Below, in pieces: positions 10,318 to 27,015 of a DNA stretch of 64,000 nucleotides; positions within the stretch are counted from its first letter, which is position 1, and every line of letters begins with the position of its first letter. This DNA is from Pseudomonadota bacterium (GTDB lineage Bacteria; Pseudomonadota; Gammaproteobacteria; Burkholderiales; Casimicrobiaceae), in the NCBI GenBank assembly GCA_018241765.1, contig JAFEDD010000023.1:49596-113595 (forward strand), given 5' to 3'. Under the pieces are notes generated by a model that ran no database searches, had not been told where the DNA came from, and was given only the letters and a program-made list of their open reading frames with translations. The position numbers and the translations under genes were made by a program.

Positions 10318-11730
10318 TCAAAACGATGCCGTCGAGCGCACCGACTGAATCGGCGTCGCGGCGCCGTAGGCTTCAGCCGACGCGTAATTCTCAAACCGCG
10401 TGAACTCGCCGCGGAAGGTCAGATTCACGGTGCCGATCGGCCCGTTGCGCTGCTTGCCGATGATGATCTCCGCCACGCCCTTCTGGGCCGATTCCTGGTT
10501 GTAGACCTCGTCGCGATAGATGAAGAGAATCACGTCGGCATCCTGCTCGATGGCGCCGGACTCGCGCAGGTCGCTCATGACCGGACGCTTGTTCGGGCGT
10601 TGTTCGAGAGATCGGTTGAGCTGCGACAGCGCGATCACCGGCACCTGAAGCTCCTTCGCGAGCGCTTTCAGCGAGCGTGAGATTTCGGAGATTTCGGTGG
10701 CCCTGTTTTCGCCACCGCTTGCGCTCTGCATCAGTTGGATGTAGTCGACGATGATGAGCCCGAGCCCGCCGACTTGCCGCGCCAGACGGCGGGCGCGTGC
10801 CCGCAGTTCGAAGGGGTTCAAGGCGGGCGTCTCGTCGATGTACATCGGGGAAGCATCGAGCTGCGACAGCGCTTCGGTGAAACGCGACCAGTCGCCCTCC
10901 GACAGCCGGCCCGTACGCAGCACGTGCTGGTCGAGTTTGCCGACCGAGCCGATCAAACGCATCGCGAGCTGCAAGGAGCCCATCTCCATCGAGAACACGG
11001 CGACTGGCTGCTTGAGCTTCACGGCCACGTGCTCGCCAATGTTGAGAGAAAACGCAGTCTTGCCCATCGAAGGGCGTCCGGCGACGATGACGAGGTCGCC
11101 GCGCTGCAACCCTGCCGTCATGCGGTCGAGATCGGCGTAGCCAGTCGCGATGCCGGTGACGTCACTCGGGTTTTCGCGTCGATAGAGCTCCTCGACACGT
11201 TCGATCGCCTGCGCCGTGAGGTCCGAAAGCGACACGAAGTTCTGCTTGCTGCGATCGCCGGACTCGGCGATTTCGAATACCTTGCCCTCGGCCTCGTCGA
11301 GCAGTTGCTCACTGCTGCGCCCCATCGGGTTGAACGCTGCCTCGGCGATCTCGGTGGCGACACCCGCGAGACGTCGCATCACCGAGCGATCGCGCACGAT
11401 TTCGGCGTAGCGCCGCACGTTCGCCGCCGTCGGAACCGCGTTGGCGATGGCGCCGATGTAGGCCAGGCCGCCGACGTAGTCGAGCTTGCCGGCCGCGCGA
11501 AGACTCTCGGCCACGGTCACCGCGTCGGCAGGATGATTGTCTGCGGCGAGCCGGTTGATATGTTCGTAGACGAGGCGGTGGCCTTCGTTGTAGAAATCCG
11601 CAGCGGACAACACGTCGGCCACGCGATCGATGGCGTTGTTGTCGATGATCAACGCGCCGAGCACCGACTGCTCGGCCTCGATCGAATGCGGCGGGATGCG
11701 CAGGGATTGAAGTTCGGTGTCGACAGCCAT
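10318..11730 (-). CDS. dnaB: Replicative DNA helicase
   Basis: PPHSIEAEQSVLG, Walker A AGRPSMGKT, IIVDYIQLM, LSQLNR, DLRESGAIEQDAD, KQRNGP; start placed at MAVDTELQ (11739 also possible). Confidence 0.97.
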   Translation of the reverse strand: MAVDTELQSLRIPPHSIEAEQSVLGALIIDNNAIDRVADVLSAADFYNEGHRLVYEHINRLAADNHPADAVTVAESLRAAGKLDYVGGLAYIGAIANAVPTAANVRRYAEIVRDRSVMRRLAGVATEIAEAAFNPMGRSSEQLLDEAEGKVFEIAESGDRSKQNFVSLSDLTAQAIERVEELYRRENPSDVTGIATGYADLDRMTAGLQRGDLVIVAGRPSMGKTAFSLNIGEHVAVKLKQPVAVFSMEMGSLQLAMRLIGSVGKLDQHVLRTGRLSEGDWSRFTEALSQLDASPMYIDETPALNPFELRARARRLARQVGGLGLIIVDYIQLMQSASGGENRATEISEISRSLKALAKELQVPVIALSQLNRSLEQRPNKRPVMSDLRESGAIEQDADVILFIYRDEVYNQESAQKGVAEIIIGKQRNGPIGTVNLTFRGEFTRFENYASAEAYGAATPIQSVRSTASF

Positions 11731-11880
11731 CTGCGGCATTTTATCGGGCGAGGCCGACCTCATGATCGATTGCGCGGCCCGAGCGACGGAGGGTATTCAC
11801 CGAGCACGATGCGTGTTAGGATGCCTCCGCCGTGCAAACGGCATGGACGAGGGTCGGGGCGACGTCGGATTGCCCGAATA

Positions 11881-11894
11881 TTGAACCACATCAA
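11881..11894 (+). promoter_or_regulatory. FNR/DNR/NnrR-type box upstream of the oxidase operon
   Basis: TTGAA-CCAC-ATCAA, one mismatch to TTGAT-N4-ATCAA. Confidence 0.7.
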
Positions 11895-12068: not shown

Positions 12069-12221
12069 ATGGACCACGACGACGAGAACGCACCCGTTCC
12101 CTTCATGCAACGGCTGCTCGACAGTCCGTTCATTCTGCTCTTTCTTGGAGTCACGATCCCGATGGTTCTCTACAACCTGTGGGGCGTCATCGAAATCCTC
12201 ATGCTGCCCACCACCAAATAG
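12069..12221 (+). CDS. Small single-TM subunit of the heme-copper oxidase (50 aa)
   Basis: RBS GAGGGAG; MDHDDENAPVPFMQRLLDSPFILLFLG...; first gene of the operon; start re-assigned from the 11931 ORF. Confidence 0.75.
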   Translation: MDHDDENAPVPFMQRLLDSPFILLFLGVTIPMVLYNLWGVIEILMLPTTK

Positions 12222-12233
12222 CGAGGTCGCACG

Positions 12234-12773
12234 ATGAGCGCCATTCTCCCCCCCGCAGAACGACTCTGGTACAAACACCCGATCGATCGCGTCGAAGGCA
12301 CCTGGATCACCATCGCGTTGGTCTGGTGTCTCATTCTGTTCTTCATGATGGTCGGCTGGCACATCTGGGGCAAACAGAACCTCTCCACCGAAACCTATCG
12401 CACGACGCCGGAACAGTTCATGACCAAGGCGGAAGCGGTTGCCGCCAAGTACACCGTGCGCACCGAGACCGAGCAAAACATCCCCGTCGTCGCGCCGCCG
12501 CCCGGCAGCGACGTCTACATGCTCGGACGTCTTTGGAACTTCTGGCCGATCCTCGAGCTGCAGAAAGACAAGACCTATCGCCTTCACCTGACGGCCATGG
12601 ACTACAACCACGGCTTCTCGTTGCAACCGGCGAACATCAACATCCAACTGGTGCCCGGCTTCGAGCACGTGGTGACGGTTACACCCAATCAGGCAGGCAC
12701 GTACTCGGTGGTCTGTAACGAATTCTGCGGCATCGGTCATCACCAGATGGTCGGGCGCATCTACGTCAAGTGA
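12234..12773 (+). CDS. Heme-copper oxidase subunit II (CuA), B-family-like, no heme c
   Basis: One TM helix; HGFS and CNEFCGIGHHQM CuA ligands. Confidence 0.92.
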   Translation: MSAILPPAERLWYKHPIDRVEGTWITIALVWCLILFFMMVGWHIWGKQNLSTETYRTTPEQFMTKAEAVAAKYTVRTETEQNIPVVAPPPGSDVYMLGRLWNFWPILELQKDKTYRLHLTAMDYNHGFSLQPANINIQLVPGFEHVVTVTPNQAGTYSVVCNEFCGIGHHQMVGRIYVK

Positions 12774-12783
12774 GGAAGCGGTC

Positions 12784-14481
12784 ATGAGCGCCACCACAAC
12801 CTACCGTACCTGCCCGCGCTCCGGGCTTCAGTTCGAAAATCAGGCCGAGAAGCTGATCAAGGCCAATGCCGTCATGGCCGTGCTCTGGCTCGCATTCGGC
12901 GGCATTCTTGCCATCGGCGTCGTGCTGACGCGTTGGCCCGCCATTCACTGGCTGCCGGCCGATACGTTCTACATGGTTCTGACCGCCCACGGCCTCGACA
13001 TGCTGATCTTCTGGATCATCTTCTTCGAGATCGCCGTGCTCTACTTCGCCTCCTCGACGCTGCTGCGATGCCGAATCGCGACGCCCAAGGTCGCGTGGCT
13101 CGCCTTTGGCCTGATGGTCATCGGCTCGATCATGAACAACGTCGCCGTCTTCCGCGGCGCGTCCAGCGTCATGATGACGTCGTACGTGCCGATGATGGCC
13201 GAACCCAGCTTCTACCTCGGCATCATCCTGTTCGCCGTGGGCGCGCTGATCGGCTGTTTCGTGTTCTTCGGCACCTTGGTCGTCGCCAAGCGCGAGAAAA
13301 CCTACGAAGGCTCGGTGCCGCTGGTCACGTTCGGCGCATTGACGGCCGCCATCATCGCGGTGTTCACACTGCTGTCGGGCGCGCTGATCATCGTTCCGGC
13401 GTGGCTGATGTCGCTTGCCGTCATGAACGTCGATCCGCTCATCTACCGTACCGTCTGGTGGGCTCTGGGGCACAGTTCGCAGCAAATCAACGTCGCCACG
13501 CACGTCTCGGTGTGGTATTTGGTCGCAGCCGTCGCACTGGGCGCCAAGCCCATGAGCGAACGCGTATCGCGCGTTGCGTTCCTCCTCTACATCCTGTTCC
13601 TGCAACTCGCCAGCGCGCACCATCTGCTGGCCGACCCTGGCGTCGGCACCGCGTGGAAGGTCGTGAACACGAGCTACTTCATGTACCTCGCCGTGCTCGC
13701 ATCGATGCTGCACGGACTGACCGTTCCCGGCGCGATGGAAGTCGCGCAGCGGCAGAAGGGTTACACCAAGGGATTGTTCGAGTGGCTGCGCAAGGCACCC
13801 TGGGGCAATCCGACGTTTGCCGGCGTGTTCATTTCGATCATCGGGTTCGGCTTCCTCGGCGGCATCACCGGCGTCATGATGGGTACCGAGCAGCTCAACC
13901 TGATCATCCACAACACCATCTACGTTCCGGGGCACTTCCACGCCACCGTCGTGGTGGGCACCACGCTCACCTTCATGGCGCTGACGTTCTACCTGATCCC
14001 GGTGCTGTTCAAGCGGGAAATGATTTCGCCCAAGCTCGCGCAGTGGCAGCCCTATCTGTTTGGCTTCTCGATGTACTTCTTCTGCCTCGTCATGATGGGC
14101 GCGGGAACACTCGGCGTATCACGGCGCCATTGGGACATGGCGTTCCAGGGCAACGCACTCGCCTACGAGTGGCCGGGTGCCGCGTACCTGATGATGGCAC
14201 TGGTGGGCATCGCTGGCGTTGCGGCCATTCTCGGCGGCATCATCTTCGTCTACATCACGGTGGGCTCGCTGTTGTGGGGACGAAAGCTCGAGCCGGGCAA
14301 GAGCAGTGCGGCGTTCACCCCCGTCCCGCGTGCGGCCCCGACCACGGCGGCCCAAACGTACGGATCGATGGGGTTTGCCGCACCGGGCACGTTCGCACTG
14401 GCCATGATCTTCCTCGTGGCGTTCGTGCTCTACTACTTCATCAACTGGAAGTATCTGTCGACCCTCTGGGGCCTCAGCTGA
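12784..14481 (+). CDS. Heme-copper oxidase subunit I, eNOR-like putative nitric oxide reductase
   Basis: Six His ligands (TAHG, GHSSQQ, SAHH, GHFH); His+4 position is Gln instead of the cross-linked Tyr of O2 reductases. Family membership is secure; the NOR function is inferred. Confidence 0.8.
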   Translation: MSATTTYRTCPRSGLQFENQAEKLIKANAVMAVLWLAFGGILAIGVVLTRWPAIHWLPADTFYMVLTAHGLDMLIFWIIFFEIAVLYFASSTLLRCRIATPKVAWLAFGLMVIGSIMNNVAVFRGASSVMMTSYVPMMAEPSFYLGIILFAVGALIGCFVFFGTLVVAKREKTYEGSVPLVTFGALTAAIIAVFTLLSGALIIVPAWLMSLAVMNVDPLIYRTVWWALGHSSQQINVATHVSVWYLVAAVALGAKPMSERVSRVAFLLYILFLQLASAHHLLADPGVGTAWKVVNTSYFMYLAVLASMLHGLTVPGAMEVAQRQKGYTKGLFEWLRKAPWGNPTFAGVFISIIGFGFLGGITGVMMGTEQLNLIIHNTIYVPGHFHATVVVGTTLTFMALTFYLIPVLFKREMISPKLAQWQPYLFGFSMYFFCLVMMGAGTLGVSRRHWDMAFQGNALAYEWPGAAYLMMALVGIAGVAAILGGIIFVYITVGSLLWGRKLEPGKSSAAFTPVPRAAPTTAAQTYGSMGFAAPGTFALAMIFLVAFVLYYFINWKYLSTLWGLS

Positions 14482-14519
14482 TTCCTTGACGTTGGTTCTG
14501 TGATGGAGAAGGATTCACC

Positions 14520-15413
14520 GTGAGCATGTCGCTTGCGCAGGGGGGACCTGCCGCGCCCACATGGCGTACCGTGGTCGGCATCTTCAAACTGCGCATCGGC
14601 GTGCTGATCATGCTCACGGCGCTCGCCGGGGCAGCCTTCTCCACCGCACCGGCGCCGGCGGCCTGGAAGGTCGCCCTCATGGCGCTGTGCGTCCTCGCCT
14701 CCTCGGCGGCGGCGGGTGCGTTCAATCAGTTCATCGAAGCGGACAGCGACCGCCTGATGAAGCGCACCCAGGGTCGCGCCTTCGCGACCGGAACGCTGAA
14801 GGCCGGGCCGTTCTGGCTCGGCATCATTCTTGTGCTGCTGGCCGCCGCCGTCGCAGCAACAGCATGGTTCATCAACGTAACGGCGGCGGTGTTTTTGTTC
14901 CTCGGCGCATTCACCTATGCGGTCGTCTACACCGTCGTACTCAAGCGCCGAACGTGGTGGAACATCGTCTTCGGTGGCGCTGCGGGCAGTTTCGCGGTGC
15001 TGACTGGCGCCGCAGCGGCCGATCCGTCGATCGGAGCATTGCCGGCGCTCTTTGCGCTCGTCTTGTTGCTCTGGACCCCCCCGCACTTCTGGAGCCTTGC
15101 CATTGCAACGCGCGATGACTATGCCGCCGCAGGCATTCCGATGCTACCGGTCGTCGTCGGCGTCGAGCGCGCCGCCCGCGTGGTCCATGGCAACGCAATC
15201 GCCCTGGTTGCGGCCTCGCTGTTGCCAGCGCTCTTTGGCGCCGGGCCCGCCTATCTGGTGGCCGCGATCGTCGGCGGCGGTTTCTTTCTGTATCGCACCC
15301 ATGCGCTTGCACGGCACCCGGAGCGGCGAACCGCGATGGCATCGTTCTTCGCCTCGATGCTGCAACTCGCCGCCTTGATCGTCGGAATCGTCGTCGATGC
15401 TGCCCTGCACTAG
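14520..15413 (+). CDS. cyoE: Protoheme IX farnesyltransferase (heme O synthase)
   Basis: GTG start; FKLRIG, FNQFIEADSDRLMKRT, YTVVLKRRT, WTPPHFWSLA..DDYAAAGIPMLP. Confidence 0.93.
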   Translation: MSMSLAQGGPAAPTWRTVVGIFKLRIGVLIMLTALAGAAFSTAPAPAAWKVALMALCVLASSAAAGAFNQFIEADSDRLMKRTQGRAFATGTLKAGPFWLGIILVLLAAAVAATAWFINVTAAVFLFLGAFTYAVVYTVVLKRRTWWNIVFGGAAGSFAVLTGAAAADPSIGALPALFALVLLLWTPPHFWSLAIATRDDYAAAGIPMLPVVVGVERAARVVHGNAIALVAASLLPALFGAGPAYLVAAIVGGGFFLYRTHALARHPERRTAMASFFASMLQLAALIVGIVVDAALH

Positions 15414-16398
15414 CAAACGGCCCATCTCCTCGCACGAAGGTGCGCAAGCTCGACTCGCTCTGCGCAGATCGGTCGCTCCACGCGACCAAACGGACGCCAC
15501 TGCGCCATCGAAGCATCGCGCCTGCGCCCCACGTACGCTCCTTCATGAGGCGGCTCGATTCGCGGCACTCATCGTTCTCGGCCTCACGGCCGGCTTCGTC
15601 AACGCGGCCATCGGCGATCGGCTCGATGAGCGCGCGGCGATGGCGGCGAGCCAGGCCGTCATCGGCACCATTCCGCCCGACTTTACGCTGCTCGATCGCA
15701 AGAACCGCCCCGTTCGCCTGTCGAGTTACCGTGGAAAGCCGTTGTTGATCAGCTTCATCTACACCGGCTGTTTCACCATTTGCCCGACGCAGACGCGCAT
15801 GCTGCAGGAGTCGCTGCGCGGACTCGAGCGCATGGGCGGTCTTGGCGACTTCAACGTCGTCAGCATCGGGTTCAACCAGCCGTTCGATTCGCCGCAGGCG
15901 TTGCGCGCCTTCGCCGCACAGAATCGTATCGATCAGGACAACTGGGAGTTTCTGAGCCCGCACCGAAACAACGTCGACGCGCTGACCCGCGCCTACGGCT
16001 TCACGTACGTCGAGACACCGGCGGGTTTTGACCATATCGTCGGAGTGACCCTGATCGATGCCGAGGGCCGCATTCACGCCCAGATCTATGGCAAGAACTT
16101 GACGGCCGAAAAACTCGGTGTGCCGCTCCGGCGCTTGGCGCTCAACGCCCCCCCCGAAATCGGCGGCCTGTCGTTCGACCAGGTGGTCGAACGCGTGCGC
16201 ATCCTGTGCACCGTCTACGACGCCGAGACAGGCGAATACCGGTACGACTGGAAGCTCTTCTTCGAAGTGTTCAGCGGCCTTTTGTTTTTCCTGACGGTCG
16301 GTATCTACTTCTGGCGCGAGTGGCAGAGCCAGCGGCGTGCACGCGCCGAGCGATCCACCGCCGCGGCCGTCAGCGGGACGCCTGCGCCAGAAGCGTGA
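15397..16398 (+). CDS. SCO1/SenC copper chaperone with C-terminal membrane extension (start uncertain)
   Basis: FIYTGCFTICP (CxxxC), FDHIVG conserved His, thioredoxin-like fold. Confidence 0.85.
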   Translation: MLPCTSKRPISSHEGAQARLALRRSVAPRDQTDATAPSKHRACAPRTLLHEAARFAALIVLGLTAGFVNAAIGDRLDERAAMAASQAVIGTIPPDFTLLDRKNRPVRLSSYRGKPLLISFIYTGCFTICPTQTRMLQESLRGLERMGGLGDFNVVSIGFNQPFDSPQALRAFAAQNRIDQDNWEFLSPHRNNVDALTRAYGFTYVETPAGFDHIVGVTLIDAEGRIHAQIYGKNLTAEKLGVPLRRLALNAPPEIGGLSFDQVVERVRILCTVYDAETGEYRYDWKLFFEVFSGLLFFLTVGIYFWREWQSQRRARAERSTAAAVSGTPAPEA

Positions 16399-17945
16399 GC
16401 CTCGCCGCCGCGCCGAAGTTGTGGCGCCGACTCGAACAGCTGCTCGACCGCGCGTTGGGTGCTCGCGCCAACCCCATCCGTCATCTCGGGGCGCTGGCAT
16501 TTCTCGCCTTCTGGTTGCTCGCGCTCAGCGGGCTGTGGCTGTATGCCGTACTCGACACATCAGCCAGCGGTGCGTATGCGTCGATCGAAGCGCTGTCCCG
16601 CGTGCCTTGGTCCATCGGCGGAGTACTTCGCAGCATGCACCGCTACGGAGCCGACGCTTTCGTGATGTTGACTGCGCTGCATCTGCTGCGCGAGCTCCTT
16701 CACGGACGCTTCCGCCACTTCCGCCGCTTCTCCTGGCTGACTGGCAGCGCGCTGCTGCCGATCATCGCGGTCAGTGCCGTCGGTGGCTTCTGGCTCAACT
16801 GGGATCGACTCGGCCAGTTCTCGGCCACCGCCACGGCGGAGTGGCTCGACGCGCTGCCACTCCTGGGTTCGACGTTGGCGCGCAATTTCCTGACGACGGC
16901 GAACGTCAGCGACCGTCTTTTTTCGCTGTTCGTGTTCGTGCACGTCGGAATGCCTTTGCTGCTCGTGTTTGGGCTTTGGTTTCATATTCAACGCATCACG
17001 CGCGCCGAGGTCTTTCCGCCACGGCCGCTCGCCGTTGGCTTTCTTGCCACGCTGCTCGCCCTGGCGCTCGCGCTTCCGATTCAGAGCCAGGGTCCGGCGC
17101 AATTGGCCAGCATTCCGCCATCGTTGGCGATCGACTGGTTCATTCTGTTCGCTCACCCGCTGATGTACGCCACGTCGGCCGGCCTCGTGTGGGCGATCGC
17201 GATGGTTGGGTTCCTGGCGCTGTTGTTGCTGCCGTTCGTGCCCACACGCATCGCCCGGCCCACCGTCGCCGTCGTTGACCCCGACAACTGCAGCGGCTGC
17301 CAGCGCTGTTTCGTGGACTGCCCCTATGCGGCCATCACCATGGCAGCGCACCCGAGCAAGCGCGCCGGCCATCAGATCGCGGTGGTCGATGTCGATCTCT
17401 GCGCCGGATGCGGCATCTGCGTCGGCGCGTGCCCCTCCTCGACGCCTTTCCGTCACATAGAGGAGTTGGTGACCGGCATCGACATGCCGCAACAAGCGCT
17501 GACCACGTTGCGCAGCGCGTTGCGCCAGCGTCTCCAGCAGCACGCGCAATCGAGCCCGCACGACGCGGCAGACACCGGGCCCATCGTCCTCTTTCGTTGT
17601 TCACAAGGCGCCGACGCTTCCGCCGAAACCGCCGGCGACGTCATCACGCTGCCGCTGATCTGCACCGGACAACTGCCGCCCTCGTTCATCGACTACGCGC
17701 TGCGTGACGGCGCGGCCGCGGTCGTCGTGGCCACCTGTCGCCTCAGTGGCTGCACCTACCGACTTGGTGCGCAGTGGACTTCCGAGCGCCTCAGCGGCGC
17801 ACGCGAACCCCACTTGCGCGCGGCCTACCGCGACGCTCCGAACGTCATGCTCATCGAGGCCGATGCCGGCGAAAACCGCGAGATCGACATGGGTTTGACG
17901 ACGATGCGGGCTCGATTGACGCAGTTCAAAGCAACATCCGTTTGA
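16395..17945 (+). CDS. Cytochrome b N-terminal domain fused to 2x[4Fe-4S] ferredoxin and MvhD/FlpD-like domain
   Basis: GTGA overlap start; two His pairs 14 residues apart (HRY..H, FVH..H); CSGCQRCFVDCP and CAGCGICVGACP; CTGQL...ATCRLSGCTY. Confidence 0.8.
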   Translation: MSLAAAPKLWRRLEQLLDRALGARANPIRHLGALAFLAFWLLALSGLWLYAVLDTSASGAYASIEALSRVPWSIGGVLRSMHRYGADAFVMLTALHLLRELLHGRFRHFRRFSWLTGSALLPIIAVSAVGGFWLNWDRLGQFSATATAEWLDALPLLGSTLARNFLTTANVSDRLFSLFVFVHVGMPLLLVFGLWFHIQRITRAEVFPPRPLAVGFLATLLALALALPIQSQGPAQLASIPPSLAIDWFILFAHPLMYATSAGLVWAIAMVGFLALLLLPFVPTRIARPTVAVVDPDNCSGCQRCFVDCPYAAITMAAHPSKRAGHQIAVVDVDLCAGCGICVGACPSSTPFRHIEELVTGIDMPQQALTTLRSALRQRLQQHAQSSPHDAADTGPIVLFRCSQGADASAETAGDVITLPLICTGQLPPSFIDYALRDGAAAVVVATCRLSGCTYRLGAQWTSERLSGAREPHLRAAYRDAPNVMLIEADAGENREIDMGLTTMRARLTQFKATSV

Positions 17946-17963
17946 CCGGCTAACATTCCATCC

Positions 17964-18512
17964 ATGGTTGAAGTTCCCTCGACCGCACCGCGTGCGGCAC
18001 CGGCGACTCGGCGCGGACCTGCCGCGTGGGTCGGCCAGATCATCCTCTACGGGCTGTTCGCCCTGACGATCGGTGTTTTCTCACACTGGCCGCCGTATCA
18101 CCATCTCTCCGGCGATGAGGCGCTCGTCAAGCTGAGCATCGTGCATGCGGGCAAACCGGTGAGCGACTGCCGCCAACGAACGCCGGAGGAACTGGCCAAA
18201 CTGCCGCCGAACATGCGTGCGGCAACCAATTGCCCGCGCGAACGTTCGCCGCTGGTGGTCGAACTCGACATCGACGGCAAGCCGGCCGCACGCATGAGTG
18301 CACCGCCATCCGGGCTCTCGCGTGACGGCGCCTCGGCGGTTTACCGCCGCCTGCCCGTCGCGGCGGGTGAGCGTGAGTTCGCGGTGCGCATGCGCGACAA
18401 CGCGCGCTCGGCCGGCTTCGACTACACGCTCGAACGCCGCGTCACGCTGAAGCCGGCGCAAGTGCTGGTCATCGATTTCGACCCGCACCGCGGCACGCTC
18501 ACGCTGCAATGA
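17964..18512 (+). CDS. Hypothetical membrane-anchored protein of the oxidase operon
   Basis: N-terminal TM segment, beta-rich soluble domain with two Cys; ATGA overlap with the next gene. Confidence 0.7.
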   Translation: MVEVPSTAPRAAPATRRGPAAWVGQIILYGLFALTIGVFSHWPPYHHLSGDEALVKLSIVHAGKPVSDCRQRTPEELAKLPPNMRAATNCPRERSPLVVELDIDGKPAARMSAPPSGLSRDGASAVYRRLPVAAGEREFAVRMRDNARSAGFDYTLERRVTLKPAQVLVIDFDPHRGTLTLQ

Positions 18513-19918
18513 GCCCCACCACGTCAACGCTGCGCGCCGAGGCGAGTTGGGCGCGCGCCCCGGCGAACTACGCGCTCCCCGTCGCGCGCGGACGCATCCC
18601 GCTGGCACGGGGCTGGCTTGCGCTGGCCCTTTGCGCACTGGTCGGCTCGGGGCTCTTCTCGGTGCTCCTGGTGTTCGCGCGCACACCGGGGCTTGCCAAC
18701 CATCTGCCGGGCGGAGACTTCTTTCGCACGGCACTCGTCGTCCACGTCGATCTCTCGGTGCTCGTGTGGTTCGTCGCCATCGCCGGGTTGCTCTGGAGCG
18801 TGTCGAGACGTGCGCAGGGCCGCGCGAGCCGAAGCGAATGGGCGGCGCTTGCACTTGCGGGGGCTGGCGCCACGTCGATGGCCGTCGCCCCCTTCATCGC
18901 GCCCGGCGCTCCGATCATGGCGAACTACGTGCCCGTCATCGAATCGATGCCGTTCATCGTGGGCCTGCTGGGCGTGGCCGCCGGTGGCGCCGTGTTGGTC
19001 GGACATGCGCTGTTCGCTGGTCCCGGACTGGGCGACGGTCTCGACGGTGCCGCGTCGCTTCGCTTCGGGCTTTGGTGTGCCGCAGCGTGCGGCGCCATCG
19101 CACTCTTCGCGTTCGCGCTGTCCACGGCGCTCGTCCCGCGCTCGCTGGAGAGCCGCGCGTACTGGGAAATCCTCTTCTGGGGCGGTGGCCACGCACTGCA
19201 ATTCACCTGGACGCTGCTGATGCTCGTGGGCTGGCTTTGGCTCGCGCAGGCTGCGGGAGCGCAACCGCCACTGAGCGCGCGAGTCACTCTGTTGCTGTTT
19301 GCCATCGCCTTTGTCGCCTCTTTCGTGACCCCCTGGGCCTATCTTGCCCATGAGGTCACGACGGTAGAACATCGTGAACTGCACACCTGGGGCATGCGCG
19401 TCGGCGGCGGCCTCGCCATTTTCCCGATCGCGCTGGCGGTGCTGCTCGCGCTCGTGCGCCAGCGTTCCGTCACGGCCGAAGCGCGGCCGTTGCGCGCCGC
19501 GCTCGTGACCTCGATCGGACTCTTCACGGCGGGCGGCCTGATCGGCCTCACGATCCAGGGCAGCAACGTGAAGATCCCGGCGCACTATCACGGTTGCATC
19601 GTCGGCGTCACACTCGCGTTGATGGGGCTTGTCTACCACCTGCTGCCACGGCTCGGTTATCGTGCGCCACAAGGCCGTCTCGCGGTCGCGCAGCCATGGT
19701 GTTACGGCATCGGGCAGTTGATGCACATCATCGGGCTCGTGTGGTCCGGCGGCTATGGCGTGCAACGCAAGGTGGCCGGCGCCGAGCAGGTGCTGCGCTC
19801 GCCCGGTGAAGTCTTTGGTATGGGTTTGATGGGCGCTGGCGGCGCCATCGCCATCGTCGGCGGCATGCTGTTCGCCGTCGTGGTGTGGCGCGCCATGCGC
19901 AATGGGAGTACACGATGA
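18509..19918 (+). CDS. Degenerate heme-copper oxidase subunit I-like membrane protein
   Basis: Multi-TM; retains VVHVD, FWGGGHALQF and PAHYHG but no adjacent HH pair. Confidence 0.7.
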   Translation: MSPTTSTLRAEASWARAPANYALPVARGRIPLARGWLALALCALVGSGLFSVLLVFARTPGLANHLPGGDFFRTALVVHVDLSVLVWFVAIAGLLWSVSRRAQGRASRSEWAALALAGAGATSMAVAPFIAPGAPIMANYVPVIESMPFIVGLLGVAAGGAVLVGHALFAGPGLGDGLDGAASLRFGLWCAAACGAIALFAFALSTALVPRSLESRAYWEILFWGGGHALQFTWTLLMLVGWLWLAQAAGAQPPLSARVTLLLFAIAFVASFVTPWAYLAHEVTTVEHRELHTWGMRVGGGLAIFPIALAVLLALVRQRSVTAEARPLRAALVTSIGLFTAGGLIGLTIQGSNVKIPAHYHGCIVGVTLALMGLVYHLLPRLGYRAPQGRLAVAQPWCYGIGQLMHIIGLVWSGGYGVQRKVAGAEQVLRSPGEVFGMGLMGAGGAIAIVGGMLFAVVVWRAMRNGSTR

Positions 19919-21840
19919 ACCTTAGCCCCCGACGCCTGCTGCGTTCGGCGTTCATGGCGGCCGAGGCCGTGTTCAACCGCGCGTTCGGCGACAAGCTCAA
20001 CCCGTTCTATCACCTCGGGTCGCTGACCTTCTTTCTGTTCTGGATCGTCGCCGGAACCGGCCTCTACCTGTACGCCTTCTTCGACACCAGCGTGGAAGGC
20101 GCCTATCGCTCGGTCGAGGCGCTGACCACGAAGCAATGGTTCGCCGGCGGCATCATCCGCAGCGTGCACCGCTACTCCTCGGACGCCATGGTCGTGACCA
20201 TGGTGATCCATCTGCTTCGCTACTGGGCCTACGACCGCATGCGCGGCTTCCGCTGGTTGTCGTGGATTACCGGCGTCGTGCTGGTCTGGCTCGTGTTCGC
20301 GGCTGGCGTCAACGGCTACATGCTGCCGTGGGACAAGCTGGCGCAGTTCGTCACGCAGGCGAGTTTCGAATGGATCGACTGGCTGCCGGGCTTCGGCGGC
20401 ACGCTGATCCGAAACTTCATGACCGACGCCGCCGTCAGCAACCGACTCTTCTCGCTGCTCGTGTTCATTCACATCGGCGTGCCGCTGGTTACGTTGCTCG
20501 TGATGTGGGTTCACGTGCAGCGGGTGCCGAAGGCAACGACGATTCCGCCGCGACAGGTCGCCATTGCGGTGGGCATCATGCTCGTGCTGCTCGCGCTGGT
20601 TCGTCCGGTCATGAGCCAGGGCGGCCCCGCCCAACTCGCCGTGGCGCCACAGACGCTGTCGTTCGACTGGTTCCTGCTCGCTCTCTATCCACTCGTCTAC
20701 CTGTGGCCGATCGGAGCGGTCTGGGCGTTCGTGCTCGGATTCTCCGCGCTGCTCGCGGCCGCGCCTTGGGTGCCACCGCGCCGCGGTGGTGGTGCAGGGA
20801 AGCGCGTCACCTATCACCCGGGGTCGCATACCCTGCCAGCGCGCACCGGCGAGACGCTGCTCGAAGCGGGCCTGCGTGCCGGCCTCGCGCTGCCCTACGA
20901 CTGCCGCGCCGGTGGCTGCGGTGTCTGCGTGTGCACGGTGCTCAACGGTCGCGTCGATCACGGCGCCTACCAACCCGCAGCGCTGACCGAAGCCATGCGC
21001 GCGCGCGGGCAGACGCTCATGTGCTGCGCGGTGCCGCTCGACGATGTCGAACTCGAAGTCGAGCATGTTGCGTCGCTGACCGACGCCAGTGCGCCCGTCG
21101 TTCGCTATCAGGGCCGCGTCGAGCGCATGGAGCGCTTGGCACCGGAGGTGATGCGGCTTTGGGTCACCCTGCCGGCCGGCCAGCGCATCGAGTTCGAGGC
21201 GGGTCAATACATCAACATCATTCTCGACGACGGCCCGCGCCGCGCGTTCTCGTTCGCCAACACGCCGGGCAACAACGAGCAGATCGAGCTGCACGTGCGG
21301 CGCATTCCGGGCGGGCGCTTCACCACCCACGTCTTCGACGGCATGAAACCGGGCGACACGCTCGATTTCGAAGGCCCGATCGGCCGCTTCACGCTGCGCG
21401 ACAGCAACCGCCCCATTTTGTTCATCGCCGGCGCCACGGGGTTCGCACCGATCAAGAGCATCGTCGAGGACGCCTTCCAGCGCGGCATCGATCGGCCGAT
21501 GTGGCTCTATTGGGGCGTGCGCAAGCGCGACGATCTCTACATGGCGAGCCTCGCCGAGCAGTGGGCGAGCGAGCACCCGAATTTCCTGTTCGTCCCCGTG
21601 CTTTCAGATGCCGACGACGACGTCACGTGGACTGGCCGACGCGGCCTCGTGCATGAGGCATTGCTGGCCGACCACCCGAACCTGACCGGTTTCGAGGTCT
21701 ACGCCTGTGGCTCGACGCGCATGGTGGAGGCTGCCGTGCCTGACTTCATCGCGCACGGCCTGGGTGAGCAATTCTGCTTCTCGGACGCGTTCACGCCAAG
21801 CCGCCCGACTCCGCCGTCGACGCCGGCCTCGAGCGCGTGA
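19915..21840 (+). CDS. Cytochrome b N-terminal domain fused to [2Fe-2S] ferredoxin and FAD/NAD(P) reductase domain
   Basis: ATGA overlap start after GGGAG; four heme His; CRAGGCGVC...C; RAFSFAN, AGATGFAP, YACGS. Confidence 0.85.
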   Translation: MNLSPRRLLRSAFMAAEAVFNRAFGDKLNPFYHLGSLTFFLFWIVAGTGLYLYAFFDTSVEGAYRSVEALTTKQWFAGGIIRSVHRYSSDAMVVTMVIHLLRYWAYDRMRGFRWLSWITGVVLVWLVFAAGVNGYMLPWDKLAQFVTQASFEWIDWLPGFGGTLIRNFMTDAAVSNRLFSLLVFIHIGVPLVTLLVMWVHVQRVPKATTIPPRQVAIAVGIMLVLLALVRPVMSQGGPAQLAVAPQTLSFDWFLLALYPLVYLWPIGAVWAFVLGFSALLAAAPWVPPRRGGGAGKRVTYHPGSHTLPARTGETLLEAGLRAGLALPYDCRAGGCGVCVCTVLNGRVDHGAYQPAALTEAMRARGQTLMCCAVPLDDVELEVEHVASLTDASAPVVRYQGRVERMERLAPEVMRLWVTLPAGQRIEFEAGQYINIILDDGPRRAFSFANTPGNNEQIELHVRRIPGGRFTTHVFDGMKPGDTLDFEGPIGRFTLRDSNRPILFIAGATGFAPIKSIVEDAFQRGIDRPMWLYWGVRKRDDLYMASLAEQWASEHPNFLFVPVLSDADDDVTWTGRRGLVHEALLADHPNLTGFEVYACGSTRMVEAAVPDFIAHGLGEQFCFSDAFTPSRPTPPSTPASSA

Positions 21841-22829
21841 CGCCAACTGGCGGCACGCGCGGACCCTACCCGCCCAACGTGGACCCCGCGCGCCTCCGGC
21901 TGCTGCGCCGCTGCGCCATGCTGGGTGCGCTGCTGGTCGCCGCGGTCATCGGTCTCAGTGCCTTCATGCGACTGTCGGCCAGCGGACTCGACTGTCCGAC
22001 ATGGCCGAGCTGTTACGGTGAAGCGCTGCAACGAGCGCAGGCCGGCATGGCACCCGCGACGACGCCGAGCGAGGGTGTCGCGCTGGCTCGCATGGCGCAC
22101 CGCCTGCTGGCGATGGCCTTGCTGCCGCTCGCTCTGCTGCTCGCCTTCGCCGGTTTGACCGTACGCCCGCAGCCGTGGCGAGGGCGCTGGCACACGCTTG
22201 CCGCGTTGGCGCTCATCGTGTTCCTCGCCGCACTCGGGCGGGCAACGGCGGATGCGCGACTGCCGATCGTCACCATCGGAAATCTGCTCGGTGGCTTCGT
22301 GCTGTTCGCGCTGTTTTGGCGCATGGCCGCGCTCGCCACGACGACGCAACCGCCCGTGCTGCGCTGGCGGATGTGGCCGCTCCTCGCACTGCTCGCGCTC
22401 GTCATCGAGATCACGCTGGGCGCCATGGTGAGTGGCGGCTACGCGGCGCTCAGTTGCCTGTCGCTGACCGACTGCGCCAACGCGTGGTCGCAGCCCCTGG
22501 CCACGCTCGATCCGTGGCGCGAGCCGCGCTTCACGACGCTCGCCACACCCATCCACGCCGAAGGCGCGCTCTCGCATGTCCTGCATCGCTACGCGGCGCT
22601 CATCTGCACGGTGCTGCTGTGCGCCGCGGCGCTGTCGCTGCGACGTGACGGGAGAACGCGAGACGCGCTCGCCATCGTCGCGCTGACCGCGCTCGTCGTG
22701 GCACTCGGCATCGCGAGCGTCGCCGCCGGCATGCCGCTCTTCGTCGTGCTGCTGCACAACCTCGCAAGCGCCCTGCTGCTCGCCGTGACGGTCAACGCCG
22801 TGCGCGGCGCCGACGCCATCAGCCGCTGA
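21837..22829 (+). CDS. COX15/CtaA-family heme A synthase-like protein (variant)
   Basis: GLDCPTWPSCYG, AHR, LHRY, LHN motifs; helix-4 His position reads N (IGNLLGG). Confidence 0.8.
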   Translation: MTPTGGTRGPYPPNVDPARLRLLRRCAMLGALLVAAVIGLSAFMRLSASGLDCPTWPSCYGEALQRAQAGMAPATTPSEGVALARMAHRLLAMALLPLALLLAFAGLTVRPQPWRGRWHTLAALALIVFLAALGRATADARLPIVTIGNLLGGFVLFALFWRMAALATTTQPPVLRWRMWPLLALLALVIEITLGAMVSGGYAALSCLSLTDCANAWSQPLATLDPWREPRFTTLATPIHAEGALSHVLHRYAALICTVLLCAAALSLRRDGRTRDALAIVALTALVVALGIASVAAGMPLFVVLLHNLASALLLAVTVNAVRGADAISR

Positions 22830-23550
22830 GGCCAGTCACCGGCAACAGCGCCCCGTGCACCGCGCGCGCGGCGTCGGATGCGAGGAACACGATCACCTCC
22901 GCGAGCGCCTCGGGCGCCACCCAGCGCGCCGGATCCGCCTGCGGCATGTCGGCGCGGTTTTGCGGCGTGTCGATGATGCTCGGCAGCACCGCATTGACGT
23001 TGATGCCCTGCTCGCGCAGTTCCGCCGACATCGATTCCGTGAGGCGCATGACGACGCTCTTCGCCGCCGTGTAGGCACCCATGCGGGCCGCGCCACGCTG
23101 GGCGGCGAAGGCGCCGATGTTGACGATCCTGCCGCGAGCGCCGAACGCATTCGGCGCCTGCGAGAGCATTTGCGGCACCGTTGCCCGCGCCGCATTGAGC
23201 AGCGTCCGCGCATTGATGTCGAGCAGGAAGTCCCACGTCGCACGGCCGGTCTCGTGCACCGCTTCACCCATGCGAAAGCCGCCGACCAGATTGCACAGCA
23301 CGTGCACGCCGCCGAAGCGCTCGACCGCACCCGCCACCATCGCGGCCACCGATTCGCCATCGAGCAGGTCCGTTGGCGCCAGCCACTGCCGCGCGCCGTC
23401 GGCAAAGCCCGCCCGCTGCAACGCCTCCCGCGAGCGATCGACCAGCACCAGCGCCGCGCCACGTTCGGCGAAGGCACGCGCCACCGCGCCGCCAAGGTTG
23501 CCCGATGCGCCGGTCACGATGACCGTGCGTTCTTGCCACGTTTCCTGCAT
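22819..23550 (-). CDS. Short-chain dehydrogenase/reductase
   Basis: TGASGNLG, YTAAK catalytic motif, NAVLPSIIDTP; 3' end overlaps the ctaA-like gene by 11 bp. Confidence 0.9.
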   Translation of the reverse strand: MQETWQERTVIVTGASGNLGGAVARAFAERGAALVLVDRSREALQRAGFADGARQWLAPTDLLDGESVAAMVAGAVERFGGVHVLCNLVGGFRMGEAVHETGRATWDFLLDINARTLLNAARATVPQMLSQAPNAFGARGRIVNIGAFAAQRGAARMGAYTAAKSVVMRLTESMSAELREQGINVNAVLPSIIDTPQNRADMPQADPARWVAPEALAEVIVFLASDAARAVHGALLPVTGLSG

Positions 23551-23639
23551 TGCTCTGTGCCTCACTCAGTCATGTGTGTGCGAACGATTGTCGCGCAACC
23601 GCACGCGGGTGAACGTCGCAGCGCCATGAAAACTCAAAC

Positions 23640-27001: not shown

Positions 27002-27015
27002 GACCGCCGCAACCC

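What the first reader, a model, noticed from the sequence alone, without database searches (positions are those of the whole stretch)
14520..22829. Candidate undescribed redox/maturation system appended to the eNOR-like operon
Seen: seven co-oriented genes, most with 4 bp start/stop overlaps (16395, 18509, 19915, 21837): heme O synthase, SCO, cyt b-[4Fe-4S]2-MvhD fusion, a small membrane protein, a degenerate oxidase subunit I, cyt b-[2Fe-2S]-FAD/NAD fusion, and a variant CtaA. Established: CyoE, CtaA and SCO are the normal heme a and CuA assembly set; the other four are not part of any oxidase assembly pathway I know. Inference: they form a membrane complex that moves electrons between NAD(P)H and quinone or heme. 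It would either feed the NO reductase or drive O2-independent heme modification and metal insertion under anoxia.
Basis: partly seen in the sequence, partly recalled or inferred. Interest (0 to 1): 0.8.

Follow-up and report, generated by a model that had tools for sequence, protein, structure and literature searches.

The report
Heme-handling redox module on eNOR operon
A widely conserved set of four uncharacterised membrane redox genes sits inside a nitric-oxide-reductase operon, and its core gene travels with heme A biosynthesis genes across many bacteria, so it most likely helps make or insert the enzyme's special heme when oxygen is scarce rather than feeding it electrons.

Summary
All seven genes, their domains and the four 4-bp overlaps are present. 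The operon starts further upstream: an FNR-type box, a 50-aa membrane ORF, a CuA subunit II and eNOR subunit I.

In 57 related genome loci retrieved through the subunit-I paralogue (G), eNOR and the four unknown genes co-occur in 53-57.

G is not simply degenerate. It keeps both heme-ligand sets and the Arg/Lys propionate pair. Family-wide it keeps only one of the three CuB/FeB histidines. Its model resembles ba3 subunit I.

Distant G homologues lack eNOR and lie divergently beside CtaA. One is fused to heme O synthase, one to a cytochrome b domain, and some have a hemerythrin neighbour.

The operon's CtaA lacks the catalytic Glu (R85) and one substrate-side His (N149).

The two cytochrome b fusions are six-helix, di-heme proteins with cytoplasmic Fe-S/flavin domains.

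Best reading (about 0.4): a heme O/A maturation module for eNOR, wired to cytoplasmic NAD(P)H and working under micro-oxic conditions.

A 2026 preprint on Ferrigenium already notes these genes and calls G an "eNOR scaffold protein". Their function remains untested.

The parts
11881..11894 (.). FNR/CRP-family (FNR/Dnr/NnrR-type) box TTGAACCACATCAA in the promoter region between dnaB and the operon
   Evidence: It has one mismatch to TTGAT-N4-ATCAA, and only 2 such sites occur in the 64 kb window. An exact TTGA-N6-TCAA palindrome lies within 500 nt upstream of subunit II in 32 of 75 related loci, against 0.04 expected per 530 nt.
12069..12221 (+). 50-aa single-TM ORF, probably a small eNOR subunit
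   Evidence: Read from the sequence. tblastn finds homologues just upstream of subunit II in 59 of 80 genome loci. Small ORFs of 50-55 aa are called at the same place in L081, L171 and L173.
12234..12773 (+). eNOR subunit II with a CuA site
   Evidence: The CuA motif CNEFCGIGHHQM is conserved. There are partial matches to CoxB and to the NosZ CuA domain.
12784..14481 (+). eNOR-type HCO subunit I
   Evidence: PF00115 scores 211 bits. It has GHSSQQ, with Gln where oxidases have the cross-linked Tyr, plus the HH and HFH motifs; GHSSQQ occurs in 83 of 84 homologues. Gln at this position is the eNOR signature (Table A4 of PMC8756737).
14520..15413 (+). Heme O synthase (CtaB/CyoE)
   Evidence: TIGR01473 scores 245.6 bits, above the 210.3 cut-off. 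PF01040 also matches.
15397..16398 (+). SCO1/SenC copper chaperone with an N-terminal TM helix and a conserved C-terminal extension that carries a second TM helix
   Evidence: PF02630 scores 53.7 bits. YTGCxxxCP and DH are conserved. TM helices are predicted at 55-73 and 287-305.
16395..17945 (+). E: six-TM di-heme cytochrome b fused to a 2x[4Fe-4S] ferredoxin and an MvhD/FlpD [2Fe-2S] domain, with the cluster domains cytoplasmic
   Evidence: Pfam. Conserved features are H82/H96 and H182/H196, two CxxCxxCxxxCP motifs and four MvhD Cys. Topology.
17964..18512 (+). F: single-pass membrane protein with a periplasmic beta-sandwich domain and two invariant Cys
   Evidence: No Pfam or NCBIfam hit. 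3032 homologues exist, all unnamed. The AF2 model has pLDDT 91 and shows one helix plus a beta-sandwich. No PDB fold match reaches E<=0.001. It is present in 57 of 57 genome loci.
18509..19918 (+). G: B-family-derived subunit-I paralogue that keeps both heme pockets but lacks a complete CuB/FeB site
   Evidence: PF00115 scores 58.7 bits. H79, E220, W224, H228, H359-Y-H361 and R420-K421 are invariant or nearly so across 129 representatives at 50% identity, while positions 288/289 (the HH of true HCOs) vary. The AF2 model has pLDDT 90.6 and pTM 0.91. Its best fold match is T. thermophilus ba3 subunit I, TM about 0.7.
19915..21840 (+). H: six-TM di-heme cytochrome b fused to a plant-type [2Fe-2S] ferredoxin and an FAD/NAD(P)H reductase of the BenC/MmoC type, with those domains cytoplasmic
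   Evidence: Pfam. The closest NCBIfam model is BenC at 199.5 bits, below its cut-off. The heme His, the Cys4 set, the RxFS motif and AGATGFAP are conserved. Topology.
21837..22829 (+). I: variant heme A synthase homologue
   Evidence: PF02628 scores 115.9 bits. R85 replaces the catalytic Glu and N149 replaces the second substrate-side His. H88, H250, H307 and both Cys pairs are kept. 52 of 85 CtaA-like ORFs in the related loci share this R-H-N-H-H pattern.

Best explanation
The locus is one FNR-controlled operon, about 11.9-22.8 kb. It encodes a CuA-type eNOR nitric oxide reductase together with a dedicated cofactor-maturation set.

Besides CtaB, SCO and a CtaA homologue, that set contains a four-protein membrane module.
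- G is a catalytically disabled copy of oxidase subunit I that still offers two heme pockets. I propose that it works in the heme O to heme A(s) branch, either as an acceptor or scaffold, or as a co-enzyme of CtaB and CtaA.
- E and H are di-heme cytochrome b 'wires'. Their cytoplasmic Fe-S and flavin domains would take electrons from NAD(P)H (H) or from another cytoplasmic donor (E) and pass them across the membrane to the heme chemistry on the periplasmic (P) side.
- F is a periplasmic beta-sandwich subunit of this complex.
- H would then be the bacterial counterpart of the ferredoxin plus ferredoxin reductase that mitochondrial heme A synthase requires.

Shown here: gene content, cofactor motifs, predicted topology, conservation, fusions, neighbourhoods and transcription.

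Inferred: the complex itself, the direction of electron flow, the heme A role and the low-O2 rationale.
For: 1. G's partners across the family are heme A genes.
- About nine distinct loci with no eNOR have CtaA and G as a divergent pair. They are L083, L085/86, L087, L090, L091, L097/100, L125, L136, L140 and L172, where the slash pairs are near-identical contigs.
- In another sub-clade CtaA directly follows G (L141, L161, L169, L160).
- P0270 is a single ORF that joins G to heme O synthase, inside a subunit II / subunit I operon.
- SCO genes sit beside G, and some G proteins carry C-terminal TPR extensions. Both are typical of assembly factors.

2. G keeps the bis-His and mono-His heme ligands and the Arg/Lys propionate pair. 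Family-wide it has lost two of the three metal-B histidines, and it has Phe at the Tyr/Gln position. It therefore looks like a heme binder, not a reductase.

3. eNOR carries heme As in both heme sites, and many eNOR operons hold a CtaA homologue (PMC11214002).

4. Heme A synthase needs ferredoxin, ferredoxin reductase and O2. Yeast Cox15 also associates with the bc1 complex (PMC13213658). H combines a cytochrome b, a [2Fe-2S] ferredoxin and an FNR domain in one chain. In this window its stop overlaps the start of CtaA by 4 bp.

5. The operon's CtaA lacks the Glu and one of the His residues that are essential in canonical enzymes. A partner that supplies the missing substrate side is plausible.

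6. P0121 is a cytochrome b-G fusion, which argues for direct contact between the two.

7. Single-domain hemerythrin genes lie between E and F, or ahead of F-G, in about 20 loci. The promoter FNR-type box is strongly enriched. Both fit a process tuned to scarce O2.

8. The module is expressed.
- Sludge metatranscriptome contigs cover the whole operon, and some span the B-C-D-E and E-F-G junctions.
- The Ferrigenium homologues were detected in a proteome.
Against: - No biochemistry exists for any of the four proteins.
- Gene linkage to CtaA/CtaB would also arise if G were simply a heme A-containing enzyme.
- Canonical CtaA works without such partners in heterologous hosts. This rests on my own knowledge and was not checked here.
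- E and H keep a conserved xDWF motif in the periplasmic-side (P-side) loop, at the position of the PEWY/PDWY quinol-oxidation (Qo) motif. That points to quinol chemistry, which my model does not need.
- H is absent from many metagenomic relatives (present in 4 of 17), and E is absent from a few genome loci. Neither can therefore be essential to G's core role.
- The two informative fusions are each known from a single contig.
- All loci were retrieved through G, so the fraction of eNOR operons that carry the module was not measured.
Confidence: 0.4

Rival explanations
1. Respiratory electron-transfer module. E and H are Rieske-less, bc-type quinol-reactive proteins. Together with G and F they link the quinone pool, NAD(P)H and eNOR. 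One possibility is a supercomplex in which NO reduction drives quinol:NAD(P)+ reverse or bifurcating electron flow, as proposed for Ferrigenium.
For: - The cytochrome b core has four conserved His, plus helices E and F and an xDWF motif at the place of PEWY/PDWY.
- The NCBIfam model that best matches the cytochrome b part of both E and H is the quinol-linked ExtP cytochrome b, although both score below its cut-off.
- The module is tightly syntenic with eNOR in 53-57 of 57 loci.
- The preprint's authors make this proposal and detect all the proteins under denitrifying Fe(II) oxidation.
- The G hemes would lie near the periplasmic (P) side, as a Rieske/c1 branch does.
Against: - G occurs with CtaA and without eNOR, E or H in about nine distinct loci, and it is fused to CtaB. 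This model does not explain either fact.
- No Rieske or cytochrome c1 gene is in the cluster.
- Most carriers belong to orders that I take to be mainly heterotrophic (Burkholderiales, Lysobacterales). Such organisms do not need reverse electron flow to NAD+ (their physiology is my own inference).
- Reducing NAD+ from ubiquinol is strongly uphill.
- H is often missing.
Confidence: 0.25
2. O2-independent (or O2-sparing) heme A synthesis. G and the variant CtaA oxidise the C8 methyl of heme O. The electrons are withdrawn through E and H to quinone or NAD(P)+ instead of to O2, so that a heme A enzyme can be matured in anoxia.
For: - In canonical heme A synthase the formyl oxygen does not come from O2; O2 acts only as an oxidant (PMC13213658). 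A different oxidant is therefore chemically conceivable.
- The eNOR-linked CtaA has lost the canonical catalytic Glu and one His, yet the variant pattern is strongly conserved (52 ORFs).
- eNOR was found in the proteome of nominally anoxic Ferrigenium cultures, and the preprint's authors call this a puzzle.
- The operon carries an FNR-type box.
Against: - Hemerythrin neighbours suggest that O2 is handled, not avoided.
- Low-potential Fe-S and flavin domains are poor sinks for a high-potential methyl oxidation.
- G also pairs with fully canonical type-2 CtaA in apparently aerobic contexts.
- R. marinus eNOR needs micro-oxic conditions to be expressed.
- A literature search found no precedent.
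Confidence: 0.1
3. Independent NAD(P)H-dependent NO or O2 scavenging enzyme. G is a copper-less, heme-only catalytic subunit that E and H reduce directly, giving a second, detoxifying reductase next to eNOR.
For: - In the window's own clade G keeps an invariant H228, H288-R289 and H406 near the high-spin heme.
- A complete electron path from NAD(P)H to the G hemes can be drawn.
- The context is denitrification, with nirS, NosR and a Crp/Fnr regulator in L097, L170 and L171.
- The flavohemoglobin family also appears among weaker matches to H's reductase domain.
Against: - Family-wide, only one of the three metal-B ligands is conserved, and the Tyr/Glu/Gln position is Phe.
- F is not a cupredoxin or any other recognisable donor subunit.
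- The association with CtaA and the fusion to CtaB are left unexplained.
- G homologues occur in genomes of apparently host-associated bacteria rich in ankyrin-repeat proteins, with no denitrification genes nearby.
Confidence: 0.1

Closest known systems
eNOR operon of Ferrigenium straubiae KS (bioRxiv 10.64898/2026.01.22.701106)
   Same: It holds the same gene set: eNOR II, eNOR I, heme O synthase, Sco1, a cyt b-FeS-FAD-NAD protein, a hypothetical protein (F), a COX1-like 'eNOR scaffold protein' (G) and a cyt b-FeS/F420-hydrogenase-delta protein. The preprint reports eNOR I/II and both cyt b fusions in a proteome, and its supplementary table also gives values for Sco1 and the scaffold protein.
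   Different: The gene order there is D-H-F-G-PerM-E, the arrangement also seen in L073 and L080. There is no CtaA in that operon. The authors propose a quinol:NAD+ oxidoreductase supercomplex and leave the scaffold protein without a function. They do not report G's link to CtaA/CtaB outside eNOR, the retained heme ligands or the variant CtaA.
Mitochondrial heme A synthase system: Cox15 with ferredoxin Yah1 and ferredoxin reductase Arh1, and its association with bc1
   Same: A heme A synthase depends on a [2Fe-2S] ferredoxin and an NAD(P)H ferredoxin reductase, and it contacts a cytochrome b complex. Here a ferredoxin, a reductase and a cytochrome b are fused in H, whose gene is translationally coupled to CtaA.
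   Different: The ferredoxin and reductase here are plant-type/BenC-like, not adrenodoxin/Arh1-type. There are extra proteins (G, E, F). The CtaA here lacks the catalytic Glu and one His. No interaction has been shown.
Thermus thermophilus ba3 oxidase subunit I (B-family HCO)
   Same: It is the best structural match to the G model, with TM about 0.7 and 20-21% identity. The heme His ligands and the propionate-binding basic pair are conserved.
   Different: G lacks one (this clade) or two (family-wide) of the CuB histidines and lacks the cross-linked Tyr. It has no cupredoxin partner. At 469 aa it is shorter than the roughly 530-557-residue ba3 chains that matched.
Cytochrome b of bc1/b6f complexes and ExtP-type cytochromes b
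   Same: The four-helix di-heme core has His pairs 14 residues apart, two further helices, and a D-W-F motif at the PEWY position.
   Different: There is no Rieske or c1 partner. The proteins have only six helices. Large cytoplasmic Fe-S and flavin domains are fused to the C-terminus. Both score below every NCBIfam cut-off.
Heme a chaperone Surf1/Shy1 and other HCO assembly factors
   Same: The proposed role is the same: passing heme a to subunit I. G is also co-located with CtaA, CtaB and SCO.
   Different: There is no sequence or fold relationship. G is a 12-helix paralogue of the client protein itself.

Membership tests
eNOR (HCO nitric oxide reductase) - gene at 12784-14481 | HCO subunit I with low-spin and high-spin heme His ligands and three metal-B His | tested here: met
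   PF00115 scores 211 bits. H69, GH230, H279-H280 and H-F-H are present and conserved in the homologues.
eNOR (HCO nitric oxide reductase) - gene at 12784-14481 | Gln at the position of the cross-linked Tyr (Table A4 of PMC8756737, after Hemp & Gennis 2008) | tested here: met
   The motif is GHSSQQ, with Q234 four residues after H230. It occurs in 83 of 84 homologues.
eNOR (HCO nitric oxide reductase) - gene at 12784-14481 | Subunit II that contains CuA | tested here: met
   C-x-E-x-C-G-x-x-H-x-x-M is conserved in the 12234-12773 product.
eNOR (HCO nitric oxide reductase) - gene at 12784-14481 | NO reductase activity with heme As in both sites | not testable with these tools
   This needs purified enzyme. 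It has been shown only for the R. marinus eNOR.
Catalytic HCO subunit I - gene G at 18509-19918 | Twelve-helix subunit I fold | tested here: met
   The AF2 model has pTM 0.91. Foldseek matches ba3, cbb3, aa3 and cNOR subunit I with probability 1.00.
Catalytic HCO subunit I - gene G at 18509-19918 | His ligands of both hemes | tested here: met
   H79, H359 and H361 are invariant or nearly invariant in 129 diverse representatives.
Catalytic HCO subunit I - gene G at 18509-19918 | Three His ligands of CuB/FeB | tested here: not met
   H228 is kept. The HH pair is H288-R289 here and F/H/Y plus a variable residue across the family.
Catalytic HCO subunit I - gene G at 18509-19918 | Active-site Tyr (oxidases) or Glu/Gln/Asn/Asp (NORs) four residues after the first His | tested here: not met
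   Position 232 is Phe in 101 of 130 sequences.
Heme A synthase CtaA/Cox15 - gene at 21837-22829 | COX15-CtaA fold and sequence family | tested here: met
   PF02628 scores 115.9 bits against a cut-off of 29.9.
Heme A synthase CtaA/Cox15 - gene at 21837-22829 | Four essential His residues: two on the substrate side and two on the heme b side | tested here: not met
   H88, H250 and H307 are present. The second substrate-side His is N149.
Heme A synthase CtaA/Cox15 - gene at 21837-22829 | Catalytic Glu three residues before the first His | tested here: not met
   It is R85, in the motif R-M-A-H-R. The same pattern is found in 52 of 85 CtaA-like ORFs in the related loci.
Cytochrome b (bc1/b6f type) - N-terminal parts of E and H | Two His pairs on helices B and D that bind hemes bL and bH | tested here: met
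   PF00033 scores 68 and 78.6 bits. The His pairs, 14 residues apart, are conserved in 67 and 70 sequences.
Cytochrome b (bc1/b6f type) - N-terminal parts of E and H | Qo-site PEWY motif together with a Rieske partner | tested here: inconclusive
   A conserved xDWF lies at the equivalent loop. No Rieske gene is in the cluster. Quinol binding was not tested.
BenC/MmoC-type oxygenase reductase - C-terminal part of H | Plant-type [2Fe-2S] Cys4 set, RxYS-type FAD motif and NAD(P)H-binding motif | tested here: met
   Pfam Fer2, FAD_binding_6 and NAD_binding_1 all match. The motifs are conserved. The BenC model scores 199.5 bits against a cut-off of 430, so H is a relative and not an equivalog.
Heme O synthase and SCO1/SenC - genes at 14520-15413 and 15397-16398 | Score above the curated model cut-off (heme O synthase); CxxxC plus His copper site (SCO) | tested here: met
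   TIGR01473 scores 245.6 against 210.3. PF02630 scores 53.7 against 22.8. CxxxCP and DH are conserved.

The most novel reading that the evidence does not exclude
G and the Glu-less CtaA form a new kind of heme A synthase. Its oxidising or reducing equivalents are supplied through dedicated transmembrane cytochrome b-Fe-S-flavin proteins rather than by free O2 chemistry alone. This would let bacteria make heme A, and hence eNOR, at vanishing or zero O2.
Probability: 0.12. Interest if true: 0.9.

Novelty: new variant of a known kind. Interest (0 to 1): 0.65.

Why it matters
eNOR is a widespread source of N2O, and it needs heme A. Canonical heme A synthesis requires O2, so it is unclear how denitrifiers mature the enzyme at low or zero O2. 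The electron donor of bacterial heme A synthase is also unknown.

This module gives concrete candidates for both questions. It is large in scale: at least 565 clusters at 50% identity and 359 matching stretches in the one-genome-per-species collection. The candidates are a subunit-I look-alike tied to CtaA/CtaB, and a single-chain cytochrome b-ferredoxin-reductase protein.

Cultured carriers exist, so the hypotheses can be tested by genetics. If the respiratory alternative is right instead, the module would be a new Rieske-less bc-type coupling device in denitrifiers.

Tried and rejected
- F as a degenerate cupredoxin / subunit II partner of G: rejected. The confident model is a generic beta-sandwich, and no PDB match reaches E<=0.001.
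- G as a working NOR or oxidase: unlikely, because the metal-B ligands are lost family-wide.
- Sequence search of G against the PDB: no hit at E<=1. The same search for CtaA gave only a marginal hit to Aquifex heme A synthase.
- Literature search for oxygen-independent heme A synthesis, or for a described subunit-I-like partner of CtaA: nothing found. A 2026 survey of heme A synthase synteny does not mention one.
- Cluster-member look-up to name the organisms with CtaA-G pairs: only one of the eight clusters carried an organism label (a Bacteroidota MAG), and none of the CtaA-G pair organisms was named.
- Consensus promoter and terminator scans: not above shuffled expectation.
- My first 50-aa ORF translation was off by one base. 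It was corrected.
- My subunit I HMM was slightly contaminated with G sequences. True subunit I calls were therefore taken only at high scores.

Full report
**What is there.** The window is high-GC DNA. Its G protein is 98% identical and its F protein 99% identical to proteins of a Burkholderiales MAG. The same sequence occurs in activated-sludge and wastewater metagenomes.

Between dnaB (minus strand, 10318-11763) and a convergent short-chain dehydrogenase gene (minus strand, 22819-23565) lies one co-oriented gene string:
- a 50-aa single-TM ORF, 12069-12221
- a CuA-type subunit II, 12234-12773
- an HCO subunit I, 12784-14481
- heme O synthase, 14520-15413
- SCO, 15397-16398
- E: cyt b + 2x[4Fe-4S] + MvhD, 16395-17945
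- F: 182 aa, 17964-18512
- G: COX1-like, 18509-19918
- H: cyt b + [2Fe-2S] + FAD/NAD, 19915-21840
- I: a CtaA homologue, 21837-22829

The domain calls come from Pfam and NCBIfam. The four 4-bp overlaps are in the sequence. Subunit I has Gln at the position of the cross-linked Tyr (GHSSQQ), which is the published eNOR signature.

**Is it more than chance?** I used G as bait. 359 stretches in the one-genome-per-species collection encode a relative. I kept the best 80, which are mainly Burkholderiales, Lysobacterales and Steroidobacteraceae. Of these, 57 have enough flanking sequence, and the counts are:

| Gene | Loci (of 57) |
|---|---|
| Subunit II | 56 |
| eNOR-I | 57 |
| CtaB | 52 |
| SCO | 56 |
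| E | 53 |
| F | 57 |
| H | 54 |
| CtaA-like | 48 |

One caveat applies. All loci were found through G, so these counts give P(eNOR | G) and not P(G | eNOR).

**Expression and regulation.**
- An FNR/CRP-type box, TTGAACCACATCAA, lies 353 nt upstream of subunit II.
- An exact TTGA-N6-TCAA palindrome occurs at a similar distance in 32 of 75 related loci. About 0.04 would be expected per 530 nt.
- Sludge metatranscriptome contigs cover the whole operon, and depth falls from 5' to 3'. Single contigs bridge B-C-D-E (14428-16817) and E-F-G (17899-18541).
- Contig depth is a poor measure of expression, and DNA carry-over cannot be excluded.

**G is not simply degenerate.**
- Aligned with the operon's eNOR-I, G keeps the helix II His (H79), the first metal-B His (H228), the H359-x-H361 pair and the basic pair R420-K421, which matches the heme-propionate RR.
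- These residues are invariant or nearly so in 129 full-length representatives clustered at 50% identity. At least 565 such clusters have E <= 1e-30.
- The HH pair of true HCOs is H288-R289 in this clade. It is variable across the family (F/H/Y at the first position, R/I/M at the second).
- The Tyr/Gln position is Phe.
- The AF2 model is confident (pLDDT 90.6, pTM 0.91). It is closest to T. thermophilus ba3 subunit I.
- G is therefore a B-family-derived paralogue with two heme pockets and no complete binuclear centre.

**Where G travels.** More distant G homologues have different neighbours.
- About nine distinct loci have only a divergent CtaA-G pair, with no eNOR and no E, F or H. One of these loci comes from a genome rich in ankyrin-repeat proteins. 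Another (L097) also carries nirS and a Crp/Fnr-family regulator.
- In a further sub-clade CtaA follows G directly.
- P0270 is a G-heme O synthase fusion, inside a subunit II / subunit I operon.
- P0121 is a cytochrome b-G fusion.
- Three representatives carry a C-terminal TM helix plus TPR extension.
- About 20 loci have a 130-160-aa single-domain hemerythrin gene, either between E and F or at the head of a hemerythrin-F-(SCO)-G operon.
- H is present in only 4 of 17 well-flanked metagenomic loci, and E is missing from a few genome loci. G's core partner is thus the heme A pathway, and E and H are accessory.

**The CtaA is a true variant.**
- In an alignment of 85 CtaA-like ORFs from these loci, 29 show the canonical E-H-H-H-H pattern.
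- 52 ORFs, including the window's gene, show R-H-N-H-H. The catalytic Glu is Arg (R85) and the second substrate-side His is Asn (N149). The heme b-side His residues and both Cys pairs remain.
- The Glu and all four His are essential in the yeast enzyme (PMC13213658).
- Of 53 genome loci with a CtaA-like gene, 47 have the variant, 17 have a canonical copy and 12 have both.

**E, H and F.**
- E and H each have six predicted TM helices. The N-terminus is basic, and the loop between TM5 and TM6 has no Lys or Arg, so the C-terminal cluster and flavin domains should be cytoplasmic.
- All four heme His, all Fe-S Cys and the FAD/NAD motifs are conserved.
- The closest family for H's reductase part is the BenC/AntC/MmoC oxygenase-reductase type, although H scores below the model cut-off.
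- A conserved xDWF sits where cytochrome b has PEWY/PDWY, which leaves quinol reactivity open.
- F is one helix plus a beta-sandwich with two invariant Cys. It has no significant fold match and is not a cupredoxin.
- In the alternative gene order D-H-F-E-F-G, an F copy follows each cytochrome b fusion.

**Interpretation.**
- Heme A synthase needs a ferredoxin, a ferredoxin reductase and O2. [quoted passage not shown] Yeast Cox15 also binds the bc1 complex.
- eNOR carries heme As in both sites and is made under micro-oxic conditions.
- The most economical reading is a maturation module. G accepts or presents heme O/A next to CtaB and CtaA. H, and E where present, carry cytoplasmic reducing equivalents across the membrane to that periplasmic-side (P-side) heme chemistry. 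Hemerythrin, where present, and FNR-type control adapt the process to scarce O2.
- I put this at about 0.4.
- The main rival is the respiratory, quinol-linked supercomplex proposed for Ferrigenium, at about 0.25. It explains the cytochrome b features, but not the CtaA-G pairs or the G-CtaB fusion.
- O2-independent heme A synthesis and an independent NAD(P)H:NO/O2 reductase remain possible, at about 0.1 each.

**Novelty.** The gene set is not unknown. The 2026 Ferrigenium preprint lists it, calls G an 'eNOR scaffold protein of unknown function', describes that as 'a very common observation', and detects the products in a proteome. An earlier paper lists a cyt b6/DMSOR-beta/FlpD fusion protein among the genes neighbouring the denitrification genes it studied.

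As far as I could find, the following points are new:
- G's family-wide linkage to CtaA/CtaB independent of eNOR
- the retained heme pockets
- the Glu-less CtaA subclass
- the hemerythrin association
- the conserved FNR-type box

No function has been tested for any of the four proteins.

Noticed in passing
window 12069-12221 (+): A conserved 50-aa single-TM ORF lies directly upstream of eNOR subunit II, outside the finding's coordinates. It may be a small eNOR subunit comparable to ba3 subunit IIa. tblastn finds homologues in 59 of 80 genome loci.
   Followed up: partly
window 11881-11894: An FNR/Dnr/NnrR-type palindrome lies in the operon promoter. The same kind of site is found upstream of subunit II in 32 of 75 related loci. 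I did not determine which regulator binds it.
   Followed up: partly
L170 4818-5210, L171 7868-8260, L173 6824-7300 and about 17 metagenome loci: Single-domain hemerythrin genes are embedded between the cyt b-FeS-MvhD gene and F, or head a hemerythrin-F-(SCO)-G operon. None occurs in the window's own clade.
   Followed up: partly
L170 7522-9882 and 10274-13899; L171 10604-13038 and 17170-19371: In a Sulfuricaulis MAG and a MAG labelled Bacteroidota, two NIR_SIR (sulfite/nitrite reductase-like) genes, then a NosR-like gene and nirS, lie downstream of G. In L171 a large surface-protein gene is interposed.
   Followed up: no
window 15397-16398 (+): The SCO protein has a conserved C-terminal extension (LCxxYDxxxGxYR) followed by a second TM helix, which ordinary Sco1 does not have as far as I know. 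The annotated ATG start overlaps CtaB by 17 bp, and the first 75 or so residues are not conserved, so the true start may lie downstream.
   Followed up: no
L040, L042, L003, L077, L058, L033, L028, L021, L011, L023, L065, L022 (CtaA-like genes upstream of subunit II): These loci carry a second, more eroded sub-type of the variant CtaA. The first Cys-pair motif ends in CR, the second Cys pair is deleted, and the helix-6 HR motif is changed. A third sub-type (L005, L030, L055, L038) has lost the first Cys pair.
   Followed up: no
L073, L080, L115, L121, L155: An alternative gene order, D-H-F-E-F-G, is seen, usually with two F paralogues (a second F was not called in L121 or L155). Each F follows a cytochrome b fusion gene, which suggests that F pairs with the cytochrome b proteins rather than with G.
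   Followed up: no
window 26977-28416 (+): A 479-aa beta-propeller protein gives weak matches to the cytochrome d1/YNCE/lactonase propeller families and has no heme c domain. A GntR-family regulator gene and a DHDPS-like gene lie just upstream. These genes appear unrelated to the operon.
   Followed up: no
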